This document shows, in pieces, positions 1 through 60,005 of a stretch of 64,000 nt of DNA; the stretch's first letter is position 1, and each line of letters starts with the position of its first letter. The notes under the pieces are model-generated. The model was not told the DNA's origin and did no database searches. It worked only from the letters and a program-made list of their open reading frames with translations. This stretch comes from the human T2T-CHM13v2.0 reference genome, Homo sapiens. Position numbers and translations under genes: made by a program. The stretch lies in NCBI RefSeq assembly GCF_009914755.1, contig NC_060941.1. One strand, 5' to 3'.

Positions 1-1296
1 CTTCCATTCCTAAGTGGGATTGGCTCAGTTTTGCCCATCCATATGGCAGCATCTCTAATAGCTCTTGTACAGGGTATCAGATATTGTGCCTTTTGGTGCC
101 AGGTTCAAAGTCAAGTGCCGATCTATGAACCAGTGTACAAAAAAAAAAAAATCCAGGTATTTGAAGGAGAGACGCTCCATTGTGAATAAAGAGCTCATAC
201 CAGCTCCTAAGCCCTATTAAGAAGAGGCCTGGTCCTCTAATGCCTTGTTTCCATTTCAGTTGTTCTTTGAGAGACAGAATGATGTACTAACCATTCGTGA
301 TTATTAAGATAGGGTTGGGTCAGGGCTTAGGGAGGGGGCAGAAATATTGGGGATAGAAAAAAAATCTGATCATTCCTCAGTGCTACCCATTTCTGTCCTG
401 TGTGGGCTGCTTAGCTAGACAGCAGGAGAATAAAGTACACCGAGAACCATAATGAAAAAACCTTCCGTGTGTTTTGTCATGTTTTGTTCCAGGGAAGCAG
501 TTGATGAGTGCTGTTACTAATGCTTTCTCCCAGATCCATTCAGTGGTGGAGAGGAGGAAAATGGGCTGGTTGGATGTGGTCTTGGTGCCTTGCAGTTACT
601 CTGCACTGGTTATGCATTTAATTCTCCTCTTTTCTAGTTAACCTTTTGCCAGTGGGTTTTCCATAGTCTGGGTATTTGTCCTTATATCAGTTATACCACC
701 TAAGGCAACTGGGTGCAAAATGCATTCTGTTCACTCACTGTCTGGGCCTTCCCCACCCTAGTCTTGGCACATTCCTTCAAGAATGTAGTTACCGTCTGCT
801 TGGGAAGATGTCAGTGCAAATGTGAAGATAATGGGCATCGGACTAGGCTTTGGTTTGCCACAAGTGGCAGCTGCCTGTATCAATTACATTTATTAATTTT
901 GCTTTTCATTTTTCCCAGTTCTCCTCACCCCCCCTTTGTTGAAATGTTGGACTTGCTGTCAGAGGCAACTGTAATATTGCCTTAGGGACTTGTGGAGAAG
1001 GGGAATTGCTCAGTGTAGTGTTTTAACTTTCAGAACCAAGCAATCTATTTACTCTTACAAATATTTAAGAAGTGTGTTAGTCCAACTTTAAGAAAAATCC
1101 AAACTCATCAGCTTTTGATAGCATCTTGGTTTTTGAAACAACTTCAATCTGTAATTGGCATTCAGAATGCCCTTGGCATGCCAGTCTGTGATGGCATTTA
1201 AGACCTGTAAAACACTTGAGCCCAACTCGATTAACCAAAACCGATAACCACCACCTTTATCTTCTAAATAAAGTCCGCTTTATTTTTATTTTCAAC
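1..1296 (+). other. KPNB1: Probable distal 3' UTR of the upstream gene (importin beta-1)
   Basis: AT-rich, no credible ORF, several AATAAA (185, 429, 1267), the last followed by a T-rich tract. Gene identity comes from recalled gene order, not from coding sequence in the window. Confidence 0.65.
1267..1272 (+). terminator. Poly(A) signal of the upstream gene
   Basis: AATAAA, a CA at ~1295 and a downstream T-run (~1307-1322). Confidence 0.7.
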
Positions 1297-1541
1297 ATCT
1301 TGCTGCTTTTTTTTTTTTTTTTGTCCCAAATGGTGTCACCTCCATGGAGGTGAAATGGTTTGAAAGTCAGAATGTGTGGTGAGAGGTGTTTGTGTATGTA
1401 TGTGTGTGGGGAAAAGGAGGGACACACTTCTTGAAATGGATATTACATAGTGTAATGTGATATAGATGAAACAGTGTCCTACAAATGAGGTAAGGCAAAA
1501 GTATGCATGGAGGATGTTTCGTGTTTGGAGAGTTTGAAGCA

Positions 1542-1826
1542 TTCCTCATCAGTAAAACAGGAATACTGACTAAGGTTGTTCTGCAAATTAAAACATAAAA
1601 TCTCAGTGTTTACCATTTTTCACTTCAGGTGGGCCAAGCTGGCACCTTGGAGGCCAGGTGGAACTGCAGGCTTGCACTGTGTTTCTGAGTGTTTGTATTG
1701 GGACCAGGTATACGGTAATGGGGTTTCTTGTGGGAGCAGTTGCTCCTTCTCTGCCATTTGATGAACTAATTGCATTCTTTTCTCAAATCTCACCTTCAGT
1801 GGAGAAATGTTCTCAGTGAATCATTG
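1542..1826 (+). repeat. Long inverted repeat, left arm (285 bp)
   Basis: Reverse complement of 2317-2597; manual alignment gives 5 substitutions and one 4-nt indel. Confidence 0.97.
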
Positions 1827-2316
1827 TCCTCTGTTTGTGCCTATTTCTCAAGCTAATTCCGTGTCTAATGGATCATCCAAAAGTTGGCCTTTCACTTAGT
1901 TTTCATCATGTATTTCATTTCTACTTGCATTTCCCCCCCTCAAGAAACTTAGAACACTAGTTTGAGATTTAGGAGACTAGGCCCTTTCCTTTAACCCTGC
2001 TGCTTATTAGCGTAGTGGTGCCTGCAGGCTAGTTCATGGAAATACACCCTTTCTTAGTTAAGCAAAGTAAGGGCTGTAGACTCCCTTTTCTGATTGTACA
2101 CCCTGTTAGTAAACTTTTGATCATGCATACCCCATGTGTTTATAAATAACATACTTGGACTACTATAACCACATATTGTGTAATCATAAGACACAAAAAT
2201 AGAAAGTAAAAAGCAATTACATGATAAATAGAAGTTCTAGTATTTCTAAATCCAATTTGGAGGTTACTGAGTTATAGAGAGTAAATTTTTACCAGACTGC
2301 ATTAAGTCCTGAACAG

Positions 2317-2597
2317 CAATGATTCACTGAGAACATTTCTCCACTGAAGGTGAGACTTGAGAAAAGAATGCAATTAGTTCATCAAATGGCAGAGAAGGAG
2401 CAACTGCTCCCACAAGAAACCCGGTTACCGTATACCTGGTCCCAATACAAACACTCAGAAACACAGTGCAAGCCTGCAGTTCCACCTGGCCTCCAAGGTG
2501 CCAGCTTGGCCCACCTGAAGTGAAAAATGGTAAACACTGAGATTTTGTGTTTTAATTTGTAGAACAACCTTAGTATTCCTGTTTTACTGATGAGGAA
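2317..2597 (-). repeat. Long inverted repeat, right arm (281 bp)
   Basis: Same alignment; the near-identical ORFs 1576-1761(+) and 2382-2624(-) reflect it. Confidence 0.97.
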
Positions 2598-2670
2598 GGA
2601 AGGGCAGAAAGATTGACTCATCACACCAAGGTCACTTAGAGCCAGAATTCGGAGCCCGGTCTGTCAAATC
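2550..2670. mobile_element. MIR remnant overlapping and extending past the right arm
   Basis: tattcctgttttactgatgaggaa...ccaaggtcac...ggtctgtc resembles the MIR core. Confidence 0.6.
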
Positions 2671-3484
2671 AAGGCTTTACACATTTGCCCTGGACAGATG
2701 CTATGAGCCTCTTAGTAATAAAAAAACAAAGGTCCATATTGCACATACTTAGGATATGCCATCCATTTCCTTCCCAGCACTATCTAAAAGTATATTTTAA
2801 TTTCGTTGTTTATCTGTTGCCAGTTTTCCCCGCTATAACGTAAGTTCCCTAATGCAGTGACCTTGACTGTCTTTTAGTATGCTCAGCTGAGAGAGCGCCT
2901 GACATATAGTAGACCTTCGATAAATATTTGTTGAACTAATGACATAGTAGAGTTCACAGAGTTCCTGTGATGGCATCACTTAGCCTTTGAAGGGCAAAGC
3001 ATCCAGAAACCTGGGAATGGCAGGGCCACAGAAGACTTCTAGCTCTTATCTGCTGGATGACTTCAGGCTAACTTCTCAACCTTGGATTAACTGATGGAAT
3101 GGGAACAGGATTAGTGAATAGTCATTATTTACATGATGTTCTTTTTATGTGCTTACAAGATGCTAGGCCTGTAATAAGTTCTTTCATAGAGTAATAAACT
3201 TTATCAACACTATAAGGAAGGCACCATTTTAGTCCCATTTTACAGGAGGAAATGTGAACAGGCTAAGAACCTTGCCCAAAGTCATGTGGGCTAGCAAGCA
3301 GTCCTGACCTGGATTTGTACCTCTAGCCTACATTGTGTGCCAGTGTTGTAAATGAGCTTATAGTTATCAATCAGAGAGAACCCTGGTTGAGATTTTGGAA
3401 TTCAATAACAAAGCCATTTTGTCTTAATTCTACAATAAGTTCCATTATTAACCTTTGGCAACTGCCAGACTCTTAATTGAGTGT

Positions 3485-3563
3485 GTGTGTGTGAGATCAG
3501 TTTCTCTCCTAATTGGAGTTTGAATGTGTGTGTGATCAGCTTCCCTCCTAATTGGAGTTTGAA
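3485..3563. repeat. Tandem duplication of a ~39-bp unit
   Basis: tgtgtgtg(a)gatcagYttcYctcctaattggagtttgaa occurs twice. Confidence 0.85.
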
Positions 3564-4162
3564 CCAAACCATCTCCCTGCACTTCTGCTCCCTTTCTCTC
3601 TAAGCTGGAAGCTTTTGGGAACCAGGGCTGGGGGAGGGGTGGTTGTTGGTGCTCAGTGGCCAAAAAGGCCACTAGGCTGCTGAGTAAGCTCCACATCTGA
3701 ATTACCCCAGCTCTGTCAGCTGATTGCATGCACAGCACAGGCAGGAGGCCTTCAAAGCCTGAGCTGTTCCCTCTCCCAGGTGCTCCTTGGCCACAGGTTA
3801 CCAAGCTGAGCTGTCCTCAGTGTGAAATGTACCTTTTTGTCTGAAAGGAAAGTACATCTCAGCTTTGGCATATGGCATTAGCTCTGGATGCAGAGGGGCA
3901 GCCTGTCACCATTTCCGAAGGAAAGAGTTCACAAATGGCTCTGTGTGAATAAGCTCTTCATAGCGATGAGCAATGCCTGCTATGTTCTGGGCATTGCCCT
4001 TCAAAATATTTTAGTCTTTCGAGTATGACCTTGGACAAATTCTCCAACTCTTCTGATTCTCGATTTCCTCCTGTAAAACAGGGATCCCAATGAAAGATAA
4101 TGCATACAAAGTTTTTAGCACAGGACCTTGAACTCACATTGATTAACCAATCAGCTACTACT

Positions 4163-5422
<1,260 letters not shown>

Positions 5423-6498: not shown

Positions 6499-6783
6499 AG
6501 CTGGGCATGGTGTCTCACGCCTGTAATCCCAGCACTTTGGAATGCCGAGGCAGGCGGATCACGAGGTCAGGAGATCGAGACCCCATCTCTACTAAAAATA
6601 CAAAAAATTAGCTGGGCGTGGTGGCGGGCGCCTGTAGTTCCAGCTACTCAGGAGGCTGAGGCAGGAGAATGGCATGAACCTGGGAGGCGGAGCTTGCAGT
6701 GAGCGGAGACCACGCCACTGCACTCCAGCCTGGGTGACAGAGCGAGACTCCGTCTCATAAAAAAATAAAAATAAAAATAAAAA
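6499..6783 (+). mobile_element. AluY-like with a small deletion in the left arm
   Basis: Alu dimer; flanking direct repeat aaaaggg(t)attcagacca. Confidence 0.88.
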
Positions 6784-50441: not shown

Positions 50442-53412
50442 TATGGGGGCTAGTGCAGTAAAGCTTGTAGGGGGCACAGATCCCTTCCAGGCACAAATGC
50501 CCACGGGCTGGGCAGATGAAGCTCACCCAGGGGTCCAGCCTGGTAGCCAGCCCCACACTGCACCCTTTGAGGCTGGTCCAGTGAAAACCTTCCCCACACT
50601 CCTGTCCAGAAATTCACCGGTTCAGCCTGGAGAAGTGGGGAAGGGGTGTCCCATGGCTTCATGGCTCAGGGTTCCTGAGCCCCGTGCGTGATGGGGAGAG
50701 TTTGGGGCTGAGGGTGCTGCTTCCGGATAGAGCCTCCTGCGCAAGGAAAGAAACAGAAACCTGTGACTTGTGTGGTATTTGTTTAGTAAGCAACCCCCGG
50801 AGTGGACTGTGTCTGATGTGGGCTGTGCGCACCCACCCTTCCCAGTGCGGCCCATGTGAGCAGGGGACCAGCGAGGACCAGTGTGGAAGGGCTGTTGTCA
50901 TTGGTGGACCTGGGATGCTGGGTCCCAGGTCCGAGAGGTGTGGATACCAAACGTGGGGCTTGGGGTGGAGGGGAGAGGGAGAAGGCCATGTTGGACCCCA
51001 GAGGTTGGTATTCGATCTGGGCATTGCTGGAACATTCTTCCCTCCAGATGATTTTTGTGGGGTAGCCTGGGACTGGGGAACCTGTTGCCAGCCACAACTG
51101 GCTTCAAGTTACTGAGCTGTTCCACTTTCCCTGGGATGAACCCAGGAAAGTTGGCGTGTTCTTTGATGGCTCAGCCTTCATCTCTTAAGCCTTCTGATAA
51201 TTTCTCTCTGCTCCCCCCAACCCTAGTCACCCTTTGGGTGTACCCAGACACAGCCCAAGCTTCTGGTCCCAATGTGTCTGAATTGGAAGGGACCCAGAAG
51301 ATCCTGTCCCTCTCACTGCACAGACAGGGAAACAGGCCCAGAGATAGCAAGAGACTCTTCCAAGGTCACACAACACACTCATTGCAGGCAGAGCTGGCAC
51401 TACAGCCCAGATAGTATTTGCTTGGGTTTCTTTCTCTGGCCCCCTACGGCCACCAGTAAAAACAGCCACCCACGCTCTCTGAAGGCCCTGATGCATTCAG
51501 AGTGCTTTCACTTCCATTATTTCACTGTGCGTTAGGTAGGCCAAGCAGTCTCCCCATTTTACAGTTGAGGTCACTGAGTTGCAGGGTCAGCTAGGGGCTT
51601 GCACTCCATCACACAGCAGACCAGAAGTGGGGCCTCTTAACCTTCCACTCTGTTGTGTGGTCAGGAGGACTTCCCACCCTGGGCCCTTGCTGGGGTCTCC
51701 CCACAGCCTCTGCCAGGCCTCTGCCTCCTCCTGCCAGACTTGAGGGATGGGGTGGATGGAGCATCAGCCAGCACTCTAGGGAGTTGGCCAGTGCTAGGGG
51801 GCTGCCTCTCTGCCTGTAGAGCCAGCTTCAGGGAGGCTGTAGAGCACTTCAGGGAGGCACTTGAGGGGATGATTCTCGAAGTGTGTATCACCATCTCTAC
51901 TCCCATGGCCTCCTTTCCTTGGTGTTCCTGCTGAGTAATTCTCACTTGACAAGTTTTTTTGTCCCCCTTTTAGATACATACACTTACATTTTTTTATTAT
52001 GAAAAATTCCACTACATACAAACATGGACAGAAGAATGTAACAGACTTCCATCCCCAGCTTCCACAGTTGTCAATATGGGTCCAATCTTGTTTCTGCATC
52101 CTCACTTCGCTTCTTCTGTCTGCAACTATATTAGTAATATAGTAATTACTAAGTACATTCTAGATATTATTTTATCTCTGCACCTCTAAAAATGACTTTT
52201 TAAAATGAATGCATTACCATTAGCAAACCTGAAAAGAATTTCCTAAATATCACCAAGCTTCTCTGATTGCTTCATAAATGTGTGTGTGTGTGTGTTTTCC
52301 AATCCTCACACTTTTTGCTCCATTCTGAGGGGCTCCATACGCGGGGTCCCTGTTGAAGGAGGCAGTGGCTCTTCACTGTTTCTTTTGGTGCTTTTTCTTG
52401 GATCAGGCTTCATAGACCCCACGCTGCCATGGAGGGGACAGAGGACACACAACCCCAATTCAGTCCCACTAGCCCCAGGTTACCTCCATACCTTCTCAGC
52501 TTGGGCTCCTGAGATCTGGGAAATCAGTGGCCATTTCCTCTCAAAACAGGCTTTTGGGCTTATAGCACAGCTTCCTTTCCGTCTTCCTGCTTTTGTGGGC
52601 TGGCCTATCCCTCCGTGGGTTCCAGTGACCCACCAGTCACACCACATCACCCATGACCTTCTTCCTTTTTGAAAGGTTCTCCCACCTCAGGCCCACCTAC
52701 AGCCTACAGCCCCACGGCTTTTTGCCTTGAGCTGACTCACGCCGTCCCGGATTCTTCCTCTCCCACCCACCCTGGATCTATCCCTCGGTATTGACCAGCG
52801 CCAGTGGCATGCTCTTCCCAACGGGCAGAAATGGGGCAGGGCACAGGGGGTGATTCCTGGGTCTGGAGATTGATCAAGGCAGCTCAGATGGGGCTGAGAG
52901 AGGGGAACTGAGAACAAAACGGTGGATTATCCCAGTAGGAGACTTTGGTGTCTACGTTTGTGTCTGGAGATTTGGGGCAGCCTGATAATGCCCCACACAG
53001 GCTTGTGCGAGGGTTTCTGTGTGGCAGTGTGTGTGTGTTGCGAATGTGTTGGCGAGTATATAATAGTTGATGGTAGACATTCTCAGTAGAGGAAGAGAGA
53101 GGCCTGTGTCTCTGTGGGTGTGTGGGTGTGTATTAATTGCTGGCAATCCCCACTTTCTGGGTGTGATTGGTTGATTATTATAATTAAGATAACTTTGGGT
53201 AGCTGTGTTGTGTTAAGCTCAATCTGCATTTGGATTTGTGCATGTGAAGACAGAGGTTGGTAAAACAACAATTTCAGTCCCACACTATCCTTGCTATCCT
53301 CACAGTCATTACAATTTTTTTTTGTCTCCACTTTCCCAACTCCAAGAACTTTAATTTTTTTATTTGTAATATTTTTCATGGGCCAGGAAGTGGACTTGAA
53401 CCTCCCACATAG

Positions 53413-56653
<3,241 letters not shown>

Positions 56654-56924
56654 CTAGGACACCTTCCCAAGGTTGTTAGGTAAGTTGTCCTGGGGACCTC
56701 TGGGGATTAGAAGTCCCTCAAAAACAGTTCCTAGGCCCCTGGAACCCTCCCTCCTCCAGGTTTCCTGACTCAGATAGGTCCCTTTTTCCTCATCCTTCAG
56801 GGCTTCTCATGAGAGGAGGGGGAAGTGTGTGGAAATGAAAAATAATTCTGATGAGGATTAGCTTCTGCCATTCTGAAAACTCTGCTCTTCCTGCTTGTGT
56901 TAGAAGAGAAAGGCTAAGCCATTG

Positions 56925-57201
56925 GAGCTGGTGATGGAATTGGTGCTGGTGGAGGTGGTGGTTGTAGTGACGGTACTACTGGTGGTGGTTGTGATGGTGA
57001 AGGTGGTGGCTGTAGATGGTGGTGCCCGTGCTGGTGCTGGTGGAGATCGTGGTTATCGTGATGGTGGAGGGGGCAGTTGTAGTGACGGTGGTTGTGATGG
57101 TGGTGATGGGTGGTTACAGTGCTACTGGTGGTGATGGTGCTGGTTGTAGTGGTGGTGGTGACGGGGCTAGTGAAGGTGTTAGTGGTGGAGATGGTGATGG
57201 T
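56925..57201. repeat. Degenerate (GGT/GAT)n trinucleotide tract
   Basis: Read directly; produces Val/Gly-rich pseudo-ORFs. Confidence 0.9.
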
Positions 57202-57873
57202 AGAAGAGTGCTTCTTTTCTGAATCTGTTACTCTGGCACAACAGCGGAATCATACAGCATCCCACCCCCTAACTTCCTCTACTTTTCCTGGAAACAAGGA
57301 CTTTGAACATGAGCCCCGTGTTCAATAGAGCCTTCTTTCAGGTGGATGGGAAGCTCCCTGTTCAACTAGGATGTGTGCAACTTCTCTAAAGGCTGAGGGC
57401 AGACTATACCGCAGGTGGCAGACCCAGGAGCATGGGAGAGGGAGGGCCTGTGAGTGGGTGTCATGGGTCTGGGAGTGTGTTAGCACTGTGAGAGCCACGG
57501 CAGAGAGGGTGGCTGAGGAACTGAGGCGTGAGGACCTTCCAGGAACTGCCTGTGGAGAGCTGGTGGTGCCCCCTCCTAGGAAGCAGCTAAGGTTAGAGAC
57601 AGGGGTGTGCAGGTAGATGTCGAGCAACTGACCCTCTGAAAGAACATTTTAAAAAACTCTGATTTGTAGTGTTTGCTGATCCCTGTGGTGTAAATACTCC
57701 TGCTATGGATGATTTCAAGCGACTCATGTGAGTCATTGAACACAGAGCCGGGAAGAGACTCACAGTGCACTGTGATTTAGTACCTCCTCCATGCAGCTGC
57801 GATAGACGGAAGTAACCTCGACAGTGCAGACAATAGTAAAACGTAAAATAACTGGGCAGTGATGATTTTTTAG

Positions 57874-58214
<341 letters not shown>

Positions 58215-58420
58215 TGAATTGCAAGTTTATATAATTTAATTTTTAATTATGGCTGTGTTTAACCACTGGCTGGCAAACTCCCTAAACACCTTCCAGCTGG
58301 TTCTTGTGAGTGGGAGGAAGCCGGCTACAGCACACCACTGATGCCTGGGCACTGTTGCAGGGGGGACTGGCTGTCAAGCTGGAGCTGATGGGTGCTGGGG
58401 GCTTTCTCTCTTCTCTCCAG

Positions 58421-58575
58421 GCGGATGTTCCCATTCCTGTCATTTACTGTGGCCGGGCTGGAGCCCACCAGCCACTACAGGATGTTTGTGGACGTGGTCT
58501 TGGTGGACCAGCACCACTGGCGGTACCAGAGCGGCAAGTGGGTGCAGTGTGGAAAGGCCGAGGGCAGCATGCCAG
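58421..58575 (+). CDS. TBX21: TBX21 exon 2 (RMFPFLSF...EGSMPG)
   Basis: cag| and |gtgcgc; 155 nt; T-box motif RRMFP. Confidence 0.97.
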
Positions 58576-58620
58576 GTGCGCGCGCCCCTGGGAGCGGTGG
58601 GCTCTGTTTCGCTGGGACTG

Positions 58621-58636
58621 GGCGCCCCCTGGTGGG
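58621..58636 (-). promoter_or_regulatory. Candidate CTCF site, reverse orientation
   Basis: Reverse complement contains CCACCAGGGGGCGC, a consensus core. Confidence 0.75.
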
Positions 58637-58881
58637 CCCACCAAGCCCCTACCCCTAATTCCTAGACCTTTAACCCCCTCCCACTCCATCCCACGCCATT
58701 GCATCCCTCCTGTTTCTGGCTTCCTGCTTTGCTCTAGCCTGTCCTCTGCTGAGTCCTCTGCCCTTCCCTGCCTGGTCCTCCCCCTGTGTCCTTCCTTACG
58801 TCCCTCTCGGGACAGGCAAAGCCCTACATCACCAGGGTTCTGTCCCGGGGGCTGCATGTCAAAGAGGTGAACTGTCCACAG

Positions 58882-59003
58882 GAAACCGCCTGTACGTCCA
58901 CCCGGACTCCCCCAACACAGGAGCGCACTGGATGCGCCAGGAAGTTTCATTTGGGAAACTAAAGCTCACAAACAACAAGGGGGCGTCCAACAATGTGACC
59001 CAG
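58882..59003 (+). CDS. TBX21: TBX21 exon 3 ([17 protein letters not shown]...NNVTQ)
   Basis: T-box motif YVHPDSP..GAHWM; 122 nt; |gtagga. Confidence 0.97.
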
Positions 59004-59410
59004 GTAGGACCTGCTCTTCAAAAGGTAGCCTCGCCCTGCTCCCCACCCTGGGTCTGAGACCTCCAAGGCCACAAGGGTCCTGCGGGGCCAGTTTGGTTCA
59101 TTTTTTCTTCCTTCCTACAGGAAGGAAGGTTCGTTTTTCTTCTGTCCTAAACGAAGGGTCATTTTTCCTCCTTCCTAAACTCTGGCTGTTTCTCACCCAC
59201 CTTGGGAGGAAGATGAGATGGGATGAAGCTGAATCTTGGACGGGGGTCATATTCAGGCCACACAGGCCAACCCAGCCTCAGGGTTTCTTCACCAAATCAT
59301 GGGTTGCCATTGCTCCGGCACCATGAAAGGCACAGAGTTGGCCCTGTGGTCCCAGGGAATAGATGCCGAGTTTCTCTAGGTTGAACAATCCTGTTAAAAG
59401 TGCCCTTGCT

Positions 59411-59740
<330 letters not shown>

Positions 59741-60005
59741 CTAAAGCCCTGTTTGTGCTGATACCTTGGTCTCAATTGACATCTGGAGGTAGAAGAGGGG
59801 GCAAGAGGCTAGAATTGGTGCCCCAAAGAGTCCGGACACTGGAGTTGGAAAGCTTGGGGGAAGTTACATGGTGGCAGAGCAGGGGAATGGACAGGATGAC
59901 CTCAAGGTGCTTGCTAGCCTCACGTGGGGCCAGCTGTTGGTGGGGGTGATGGGATCCTCGAAATCCTTCCTCCCCACCCCTACAACCGTCTTGCTCTGTC
60001 TACAG

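What the first reader, a model, noticed from the sequence alone, without database searches (positions are those of the whole stretch)
1542..2597. Near-perfect non-Alu inverted duplication (~280-bp stem, 490-nt loop) just past the KPNB1 poly(A) signal
Seen: 1542-1826 is the reverse complement of 2317-2597 with 5 substitutions and one 4-nt bulge (~98% identity), much closer than typical inverted Alu pairs. The left arm starts ~270 nt after AATAAA 1267, and further AATAAA hexamers follow the right arm (2717-2722, 3193-3198). Known: Pol II reads past poly(A) sites, and long near-perfect dsRNA is a substrate for ADAR1, Dicer/Drosha, PKR and MDA5. Inference: readthrough or distal-poly(A) RNA from a housekeeping gene would fold into a long duplex. 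It could act as a hyper-edited self-dsRNA, an endo-siRNA source or a termination element, and it sits directly upstream of a TBK1 adaptor gene. I cannot tell whether it has been described before.
Basis: partly seen in the sequence, partly recalled or inferred. Interest (0 to 1): 0.85.

Follow-up and report, generated by a model that had tools for sequence, protein, structure and literature searches.

The report
Recent inverted duplication downstream of KPNB1
A 281-base stretch just past the end of the KPNB1 gene was copied, flipped and reinserted 490 bases upstream fairly recently in evolution, leaving a real but probably functionless hairpin-capable repeat.

Summary
Arms 1542-1826 and 2317-2597 are reverse complements with 5 substitutions, one 4-nt indel and a 490-nt spacer. 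The arm sequence occurs only at these two places in the genome and the spacer once. It is therefore a local duplication, not a repeat family.

Among 161 inverted pairs (arms >=150 nt, spacer <=5 kb) in 264 kb, it is the only one at >=95% identity.

An ancient interspersed repeat, which I recall as MIR, runs unbroken across the right arm's outer edge. It is cut off at the left arm's edge. So the right arm is the parent and the left arm is the inverted copy.

Arm divergence (K=0.018) suggests an age of about 9-18 Myr (95% range 3-43) if there was no gene conversion.

Single-stranded RNA or DNA would fold into one long stem. However, no annotated transcript covers it, there is no Rfam match, and the searched papers do not mention it. 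TBKBP1 lies 7.25 kb away.

Most likely it is a neutral by-product of replication template switching. A role for its dsRNA is untested and unlikely.

The parts
1542..1826 (.). Left arm (285 nt): the derived, inverted copy
   Evidence: alignment to the right arm; one of only two places in the genome; it carries the inner half of the interspersed repeat, but the repeat is cut off at 1541/1542.
1565..1568 (.). 4-nt indel (present in the left arm only); forms a bulge in the folded strand
1827..2316 (.). 490-nt spacer (the loop); single-copy sequence, 36.5% G+C
   Evidence: one place in the genome; G+C
2317..2597 (.). Right arm (281 nt): the parental copy, still in its original context on the outer side
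   Evidence: the two-part repeat motif spans 2597/2598 without a break.
2563..2635 (+). Tool-supported extent of an ancient interspersed repeat (MIR by my recall) crossing the right arm's outer boundary. By eye it runs on to about 2705.
   Evidence: 16-mer: 4763 genome hits against 12 control; 622 against 1; single window match at 2589-2635; 219 against 10; window matches at 2563-2597 and 1542-1580
1267..1295 (+). KPNB1 poly(A) signal (AATAAA 1267-1272) and annotated 3' end (1295). A T17 run and a GT-rich tract follow.
   Evidence: annotation supplied with the finding
2717..2722 (+). AATAAA hexamer 120 nt past the right arm; use unknown
3193..3198 (+). AATAAA hexamer; use unknown

Best explanation
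This is a genuine single-locus inverted duplication. A 281-nt stretch (now 2317-2597) consists of part of an old interspersed repeat plus adjoining unique sequence. It was copied in reverse-complement orientation and inserted 490 bp upstream, between what are now 1541 and 1827. The likeliest cause is a replication template switch: the growing strand left its template at 1541, copied the opposite strand from 2597 back to 2317, then returned at 1827. In the four-point notation of PMC7954356 this is order 1-4-3-2. The event is evolutionarily recent, roughly great-ape age on the arm divergence. Since then the arms have gained 5 substitutions and one 4-nt indel. I take it to be selectively neutral DNA. 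Both arms lie 0.25-1.3 kb past the KPNB1 cleavage site, so they are probably transcribed only as uncapped post-cleavage RNA. There the hairpin would form briefly in the nucleus, might be edited, and would be degraded with the rest of that RNA. Shown: structure, uniqueness, polarity, fold. Inferred: mechanism, age, transcription, neutrality.
For: Structure and identity. Uniqueness: the arm matches 2 places in the genome and the spacer 1, and a probe across the right boundary finds only itself and the left arm. Polarity: the 16-mer at the outer arm end is highly repeated genome-wide (4763 hits against 12 for the reversed control). A two-part motif with one half inside the right arm and the other half 28 nt outside it occurs 622 times against 1. 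In the window that motif matches only at 2589-2635. The motif lying wholly inside the arm (219 against 10) matches both arms. So the old repeat is whole across 2597/2598 and truncated at 1541/1542. Mechanism: passages of PMC7954356 state that 1-4-3-2 and 3-2-1-4 template switches are the majority patterns and generate single inverted repeats. Age: K=0.018, giving 9 Myr at 1e-9 or 18 Myr at 0.5e-9 per site per year (the rates are recalled). No sign of function: no transcript, element or masked repeat is annotated between 48547295 and 48550157; there are 0 Rfam matches at E<=1 in 1000-3600; the mismatches show no strand bias. KPNB1 has a canonical AATAAA followed by T17 and GT-rich tracts, which I read as an efficient site leaving little stable read-through mRNA (inference).
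Against: No outgroup genome could be consulted, so the empty ancestral site, the age and fixation in humans are all unverified. The junctions show no microhomology, whereas replication-based switches often use a few bases. The copied tract (281 nt) and the jump (0.5-1 kb) are larger than the range the cited method searches (+/-100 nt, tens to hundreds of nucleotides). Gene conversion between arms would make the true age older than the divergence suggests. Copy-against-copy alignments failed to show the repeat's continuity across the boundary at conventional significance (negative; Stouffer Z 1.82 beyond the right arm against 0.20 beyond the left). The polarity therefore rests on the motif counts. 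Neutrality is a default, not a result: no expression, editing or small-RNA data were available, and KPNB1 is highly expressed (recalled), so even transient dsRNA could be abundant.
Confidence: 0.6

Rival explanations
1. Functional self-dsRNA element. Read-through or distal-poly(A) KPNB1 RNA folds into a ~280-bp duplex that serves as an ADAR1 hyper-editing substrate, a source of endo-siRNAs, a PKR/MDA5 ligand or a termination element.
For: The fold is very stable and almost perfect. The element lies inside the zone where Pol II usually still transcribes (PMC11754735 passages). AATAAA hexamers follow the right arm. Barak et al. (PMC7006430, Results read) show that expressed long near-perfect duplexes in human transcripts tend to be heavily edited. 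A 2026 preprint, seen only in the search listing, reports that RNA in termination windows can influence 3'-end processing.
Against: No annotated transcript or element covers it and there is no RNA family match. No paper was found linking KPNB1 to such a duplex (KPNB1 occurs 0 times in PMC13508285). The substitutions show no bias towards keeping + strand pairing (P=0.31). Post-cleavage RNA is uncapped, nuclear and short-lived (established knowledge), so cytoplasmic sensors should rarely meet it. Barak et al. argue that such duplexes are selected against in mRNAs. The element is young, so any function would be lineage-specific.
Confidence: 0.1
2. The duplication is much older than its divergence suggests, and the arms have been kept alike by gene conversion between them.
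For: Close inverted repeats are known to convert each other (established knowledge). The differences leave a 122-bp identical core. The Poisson range on 5 events already reaches 43 Myr.
Against: With 281-nt arms and only 6 differences there is no power to detect conversion tracts. Nothing in the sequence requires conversion. The duplication must post-date the insertion and decay of the old interspersed repeat it copies.
Confidence: 0.12
3. Same duplication, different mechanism. A double-strand break at 1541/1827 was repaired by end joining that captured an inverted copy of nearby DNA (fold-back or fragment capture), rather than by a replication template switch.
For: Both junctions are blunt, with no microhomology. 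The copied tract is longer than typical short-range switches. Fold-back models for inverted duplications with spacers exist (PMC3907307 and PMC10766186, seen in the search listing only).
Against: Those fold-back models concern large duplications with terminal deletions or triplications, not a clean 281-nt interstitial insertion (my reading of abstracts only). One or two bases of original microhomology could have been erased by later substitution.
Confidence: 0.2
4. A DNA transposon or MITE with long terminal inverted repeats, or two independent insertions of the same SINE in opposite orientation.
For: The overall shape (two inverted arms around a core) resembles a TIR element, and the arms' outer ends are SINE-derived.
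Against: The arm has only 2 places and the core only 1 place in the whole genome. No target-site duplication flanks either the whole unit or the left arm. An old repeat runs through the right end. 98% identity, extending about 200 nt beyond the recognisable repeat part, is incompatible with two independent ancient insertions; other inverted repeat pairs here are <=93.5%.
Confidence: 0.02
5. Assembly artefact in T2T-CHM13.
For: None found.
Against: The arms differ at 5 sites and a 4-nt indel and are separated by 490 nt of unique sequence. The whole unit (1,056 nt) is shorter than a long read (inference).
Confidence: 0.02

Closest known systems
Inverted repeats created by local template switching (four-point model; Walker et al. 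2021, PMC7954356, passages read)
   Same: A stretch of nearby sequence reappears as its reverse complement. The switch-point order 1-4-3-2 is one of the two majority patterns said to give a single inverted repeat. The result is a new hairpin-capable sequence.
   Different: Here the copied tract is 281 nt and the jump is 0.5-1 kb, whereas the published search space is +/-100 nt (tens to hundreds of nucleotides). No ancestral sequence was available to prove the event, and there is no microhomology at the junctions.
Long, nearly perfect inverted duplicated sequences (IDS) in human transcripts (Barak et al. 2020, PMC7006430, abstract and Results read)
   Same: Near-perfect intramolecular duplex potential of about 300 bp. 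That paper counts 197 human IDS >300 bp and >96% identical within RefSeq transcripts, mostly weakly expressed and, when expressed, edited.
   Different: This one is 281-285 nt (just under their 300-bp cut). It lies outside any RefSeq transcript. It is mostly unique sequence rather than a pair of young mobile elements. Their Table S8 could not be opened because supplements are closed.
Inverted Alu pairs in 3' UTRs and introns (ADAR substrates, nuclear retention, MDA5 ligands; recalled literature)
   Same: Arm length of about 300 nt, a spacer of a few hundred nt, and the same expected fate if transcribed (editing, retention).
   Different: It is not Alu. The arm matches only its partner in the genome, no masked repeat of >=100 nt lies in 1542-2597, and identity is 98% against <=93.5% for the other inverted pairs in 264 kb.
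Recombinogenic long inverted repeats (Lobachev criteria as quoted in Lirex, PMC5414712, passages read)
   Same: High arm identity (>85%) and arms of Alu-like length.
   Different: The spacer is 490 bp and the arm/spacer ratio is 0.58, against the quoted labile range of spacer <20 bp and ratio >16. Strong DNA instability is therefore not expected.
Hairpin-RNA (hpRNA) endo-siRNA loci of flies and mouse oocytes (recalled literature)
   Same: A genomic inverted duplication giving a long perfect hairpin.
   Different: No evidence of a dedicated transcript or small RNAs here. Human somatic Dicer processes long dsRNA poorly (recalled).

Membership tests
Inverted Alu pair | Both arms are Alu elements (high-copy primate SINE) | tested here: not met
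   The arm aligns full length only to itself and its partner in the genome. There is no masked repeat of >=100 nt in 1542-2597, whereas the neighbouring blocks from 4157 on are masked.
Template-switch inverted repeat (four-point model) | The derived segment is the reverse complement of nearby sequence on the same chromosome | tested here: met
   the donor lies 490 nt away.
Template-switch inverted repeat (four-point model) | Direction resolved: one copy sits in ancestral context and the other is an insertion | tested here: met
   The interspersed repeat is continuous across 2597/2598 (622 against 1 genome-wide; sole window match at 2589-2635) and truncated at 1541/1542 (one search shows both arms carry only the inner half).
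Template-switch inverted repeat (four-point model) | Ancestral (outgroup) sequence lacks the insertion and explains the junctions | not testable with these tools
   No primate or other mammalian genome was on hand.
Template-switch inverted repeat (four-point model) | Short range (tens to hundreds of nucleotides) | tested here: inconclusive
   The tract is 281 nt and the switch points are 286-1,056 nt apart. This is at or beyond the published search space of +/-100 nt.
Long near-perfect IDS of Barak et al. | >300 bp, >96% identity, inside a RefSeq transcript | tested here: not met
   Length is 281-285 nt. Identity is 96.8-98.2% (met). The element lies 246 nt beyond the last annotated KPNB1 base.
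Recombinogenic / labile LIR | Spacer <20 bp, identity >85%, arm/spacer ratio >16 | tested here: not met
   The spacer is 490 nt and the ratio is 0.58; only the identity criterion is met. Lirex's own looser rule, as worded, is ambiguous in its units.
TIR DNA transposon / MITE | Multiple genomic copies and a target-site duplication | tested here: not met
   (2 places for the arm, 1 for the core). No flanking direct repeat.
MIR SINE (name recalled) | Sequence matches the family's conserved core in the right order and spacing | tested here: inconclusive
   Motif counts show that a highly repeated element covers 2563-2635 and 1542-1580. No repeat library was available, so the family name comes from my memory. 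Copy-to-copy alignments were not significant.
pri-miRNA or other described RNA family | Match to an Rfam covariance model | tested here: not met
   0 matches at E<=1 in 1000-3600, both strands.
hpRNA / endo-siRNA locus | Dicer-dependent 21-23-nt RNAs confined to the arms | not testable with these tools
   No small-RNA data.
ADAR hyper-editing substrate | Clustered A-to-G mismatches in RNA over both arms | not testable with these tools
   No reads or editing tables. Paper searches for KPNB1 with editing terms found nothing relevant.

The most novel reading that the evidence does not exclude
A great-ape-age, near-perfect 280-bp hairpin placed 250 nt beyond the cleavage site of a very highly expressed housekeeping gene works as a built-in alarm for failed 3'-end processing. 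Normally it exists only in short-lived nuclear post-cleavage RNA. When cleavage or termination is blocked (viral host shut-off, stress), capped read-through RNA ending at the 2717 or 3193 signals would carry the duplex to the cytoplasm. There it would engage ADAR1 p150, PKR or MDA5. Alternatively, in the nucleus it could slow the 5'-3' exonuclease and tune KPNB1 termination.
Probability: 0.04. Interest if true: 0.75.

Novelty: new member of a known kind. Interest (0 to 1): 0.28.

Why it matters
As it stands, this is a tidy example of how a local inverted duplication creates a long hairpin-capable sequence from mostly unique DNA. The direction of the event can be read from a bisected old repeat without any outgroup genome. 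It would matter more if the duplex were shown to be transcribed. Long near-perfect non-Alu duplexes are rare and appear to be selected against in human mRNAs (PMC7006430). One sitting in the termination zone of an abundant housekeeping gene would then be a natural test case. It could show how cells handle self-dsRNA made by read-through, and whether structure in termination-window RNA affects 3'-end processing. It is also a candidate site for a small inversion polymorphism of the 490-bp spacer.

Tried and rejected
(1) I looked for other copies of the boundary-spanning repeat inside the window. Strict blastn, single-sequence nhmmer and a tiled Smith-Waterman scan (best score 15 against a shuffled maximum of 17) gave only self and arm matches.

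(2) I aligned 2500-2720 against a neighbouring element I took by eye for the same family (3200-3450). The result was not significant: 117 of 2000 shuffles reached the score, and the reverse-complement control scored as high, with 70 of 2000.

(3) A whole-genome BLAST with 2540-2730 returned only the locus itself and the left arm. That tool skips very common words, so this says nothing about old repeats.

(4) I ran an anchored extension test on 8 short blastn anchors in 264 kb. Stouffer Z was 1.82 beyond the right arm, 0.20 beyond the left and 1.68 inside the arm. This is only suggestive, and some anchors are purine-rich and may be spurious. The motif-count approach replaced these attempts.

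(5) Transposon, double SINE insertion, miRNA and artefact readings were rejected for the reasons given under the rival explanations.

(6) I tested for selection on RNA pairing using the G.U pattern. There is no signal: 3 of 4 transitions, P=0.31.

(7) Literature:
- KPNB1 + 'inverted repeat' + dsRNA gave 4 papers, none relevant by title or abstract start.
- KPNB1 + readthrough + downstream-of-gene gave 1 paper, which contains only mouse Kpnb1 isoform primers.
- KPNB1 + edQTL gave 0 papers.
- KPNB1 / hyper-edited / A-to-I with at least 2 of 3 terms gave 338 papers; the 10 listed contain KPNB1 0 times.
- KPNB1 + RNA editing + ADAR1 + 3 UTR gave 1 unrelated review.
The statement that the element is undescribed rests on these searches only. 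Supplementary tables were closed (for example Table S8 of PMC7006430 and S1 Data of PMC7954356) and coordinate-based catalogues could not be queried.

(8) The bacterial-type promoter/terminator scan, ORF listing and protein tools were not used, because they do not bear on this non-coding human locus.
Full report
The repeat finder on 1000-3500 gives two collinear inverted pairs with 490 nt between the inner ends. They are 1569-1826 / 2317-2574 (258 nt, 98%) and 1542-1567 / 2572-2597 (26 nt, 100%). A global alignment of the left arm with the reverse complement of the right arm joins them into one pair. That pair is 1542-1826 (285 nt) against 2317-2597 (281 nt). It has five substitutions (1583/2560, 1596/2547, 1719/2424, 1720/2423, 1787/2356) and one 4-nt indel (1565-1568). 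Similarity ends abruptly at all four arm ends. The AATAAA hexamers at 1267, 2717 and 3193 are in place, and the left arm begins 246 nt after the annotated KPNB1 3' end.

IT IS A LOCAL DUPLICATION, NOT A REPEAT FAMILY. A search of the whole reference with the left arm finds two places only, the two arms (100% and 97%, E 8e-144 and 4e-131). The spacer is found once. The tool warns that very common words are skipped and closed regions are hidden. However, the arm aligned over its full length, so it was not masked. RefSeq lists no transcript, functional element or masked repeat of 100 nt or more between chromosome positions 48547295 and 48550157, that is window 1296-4156. Rfam gives no match at E<=1 on either strand of 1000-3600.

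HOW UNUSUAL IT IS. Across the whole window, the repeat finder lists 40 inverted pairs of >=100 nt within 5 kb. Of the 25 shown, this pair is the longest and the only one above 94%. I also ran a blastn self-comparison of the window plus twenty 10-kb stretches of the same chromosome, 264 kb in all. It finds 161 inverted pairs with arms >=150 nt and spacer <=5 kb. One of the 161 (this pair) is >=95% identical. The next is 93.5% (window 5125-5321 / 6577-6776, inside masked repeat blocks). All others are <=88.5%. For scale, Barak et al. count 197 inverted duplicates >300 bp and >96% identical inside human RefSeq transcripts (PMC7006430; abstract and Results read). Such things are uncommon but not unheard of. 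This pair would miss that list on two counts: its length (281-285 nt) and its position outside any transcript.

WHICH ARM IS THE ORIGINAL. By eye, the outer end of each arm looked to me like the core of an old mammalian SINE (MIR; the name and consensus are from memory, and no tool here names repeat families). Direct alignment to other copies failed to confirm this:
- Strict blastn, nhmmer and a tiled Smith-Waterman scan of the window gave nothing beyond self matches.
- A pairwise test against a neighbouring look-alike was not significant (117 of 2000 shuffles).
- An anchored extension test on 8 short anchors was only suggestive (Stouffer Z 1.82 beyond the right arm against 0.20 beyond the left).

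Motif counting settled the question:
- The 16-mer at the arm's outer end, with one position left open, occurs 4,763 times in the genome against 12 for the same pattern read backwards.
- I then built a two-part pattern that straddles the right arm's outer boundary. Nine bases end at 2597 inside the arm. Ten bases lie at 2626-2635 outside it. The gap is 22-36 nt. This pattern occurs 622 times against 1.
- In the window that pattern matches once, at 2589-2635 on the + strand, and not at the left arm.
- A two-part pattern lying wholly inside the arm occurs 219 times against 10 and matches both arms (1542-1580 + and 2563-2597 -).

So one old interspersed element runs unbroken from inside the right arm into its flank, while the left arm carries only the inner half and is cut at 1541/1542. 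The right arm therefore sits in its ancestral context, and the left arm is the inverted copy inserted 490 bp upstream.

This also disposes of three other readings. Two independent SINE insertions are excluded by the 98% identity, which continues about 200 nt past the recognisable repeat part. A transposon with long terminal repeats is excluded by the copy numbers, the lack of a target-site duplication, and the old repeat running through one 'end'. An assembly fold-back artefact is unlikely because the arms differ and are separated by unique sequence.

HOW IT AROSE (INFERENCE). The arrangement fits the four-point template-switch description (PMC7954356; passages read). Synthesis runs to point 1 (1541). 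It switches to the other strand at point 2 (2597) and copies back to point 3 (2317). It then returns at point 4 (1827). The order along the ancestral sequence is 1-4-3-2. The paper says this order, together with 3-2-1-4, forms the majority of events and yields single inverted repeats. Read in this direction, point 2 lies ahead of point 1, which the paper says excludes an intra-strand switch. Read on the other strand, the order is 3-2-1-4.

There are three points against. Neither junction shows microhomology. The tract and the jump are larger than the +/-100-nt space that study searched. No ancestral sequence was available. Capture of an inverted fragment during break repair is the main mechanistic rival.

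AGE (INFERENCE). Five substitutions in 281 aligned sites give a Jukes-Cantor distance of 0.018. That corresponds to 9 Myr at 1e-9 and 18 Myr at 0.5e-9 substitutions per site per year. The Poisson 95% range is 3-43 Myr across those rates (the rates are recalled). Gene conversion between the arms would make this an underestimate. A great-ape-age event is the central guess. Anything from human-specific to catarrhine is allowed.

WHAT IT COULD DO. As single-stranded RNA, 1542-2597 folds into one long stem with MFE -640.3 kcal/mol. As DNA the value is -390.1 kcal/mol.
- On the + strand the stem has 276 Watson-Crick pairs, 3 G.U pairs, 2 mismatches and a 4-nt bulge. The longest perfect run is 122 bp, or 151 bp if G.U pairs are allowed.
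- On the - strand it has 276 Watson-Crick pairs, 1 G.U pair and 4 mismatches.
- Three of four transitions fall as G.U on the + strand. This is not significant (P=0.31), so there is no trace of selection for pairing in the KPNB1-sense RNA.

Pol II generally continues hundreds to thousands of bases past the poly(A) site, and most human genes terminate within 6 kb (PMC11754735; passages read). Both arms (+0.25 to +1.3 kb) are therefore probably transcribed as post-cleavage RNA. That RNA is uncapped, nuclear and quickly degraded (established knowledge). It could meet nuclear ADARs but would hardly meet cytoplasmic PKR or MDA5.

KPNB1's own site is canonical: AATAAA followed by a T17 run and a GT-rich tract. 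This argues for efficient cleavage. The downstream hexamers are unremarkable, with 19 AATAAA on the + strand of the window, about one per 3.4 kb. TBKBP1's first exon is 7,253 nt beyond the right arm, so 'directly upstream' is an overstatement.

At the DNA level, the 490-nt spacer and the arm/spacer ratio of 0.58 are far from the labile range quoted in Lirex from Lobachev et al. (spacer <20 bp, ratio >16; PMC5414712 passages). Strong fragility is therefore not expected. Recombination between the arms could still invert the spacer.

IS IT KNOWN? Full-text searches found nothing describing this element:
- KPNB1 with 'inverted repeat' and dsRNA gave 4 papers, unrelated by title or abstract start.
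- KPNB1 with readthrough and downstream-of-gene gave 1 paper, containing only mouse Kpnb1 isoform primers.
- KPNB1 with edQTL gave 0 papers.
- KPNB1 with RNA editing, ADAR1 and 3 UTR gave 1 unrelated review.
- A recent paper on cytoplasmic editing substrates does not mention the gene.
Supplementary tables were closed and coordinate-based resources were not available. 'Not found' therefore means not found in main texts.

VERDICT. This is a real and well-defined but ordinary kind of feature: a recent local inverted duplication. Its direction is resolved (right arm to left arm). It most likely arose by template switching and is most likely neutral. I rate the dsRNA-function reading at about 0.1 and the boldest version, a read-through alarm or termination tuner, at about 0.04. 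The first decisive step is a simple comparison with other primate genomes, followed by a look at nascent-RNA, 3'-end and editing data for this 1-kb interval.

Noticed in passing
window 5125-5321 and 6577-6776: The second most similar inverted pair in the 264 kb scanned: about 200-nt arms, 93.5-94% identity, 1,255-nt spacer. It lies inside masked repeat blocks of the same KPNB1-TBKBP1 intergenic region, so it is presumably a pair of young SINEs. It would also form dsRNA in long read-through RNA.
   Followed up: partly
window 1306-1322 and 1374-1412: A run of 17 T immediately after the annotated KPNB1 3' end, and a GT-rich, microsatellite-like tract about 80 nt downstream. These look like classical downstream elements of a strong poly(A) site.
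   Followed up: no
window 1756-1775 vs 2926-2945 (and 2368-2387): A 20-nt stretch inside each arm is 85% identical to a stretch 330 nt past the right arm (D1/I3). By eye, 2880-2945 and 3229-3300 look like further fragments of the same old SINE family (recall only). The match may be chance, or it may mean that more of the arm is repeat-derived than the motif tests show.
   Followed up: no
window 1587-1592: An ATTAAA variant poly(A) hexamer lies inside the left arm on the + strand. Its use is unknown.
   Followed up: no
window 53400-59800 (TBX21 intron 1): A dense cluster of inverted pairs of 115-230 nt at 82-87% identity, most likely Alu-type repeats.
   Followed up: no
literature (mouse Kpnb1): A 2023 paper on influenza-induced alternative polyadenylation lists primer pairs for a common and an alternative (extended) mouse Kpnb1 3' UTR isoform (PMC10427651, one passage). 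This suggests the gene's 3' end is subject to regulated site choice, at least in mouse.
   Followed up: partly
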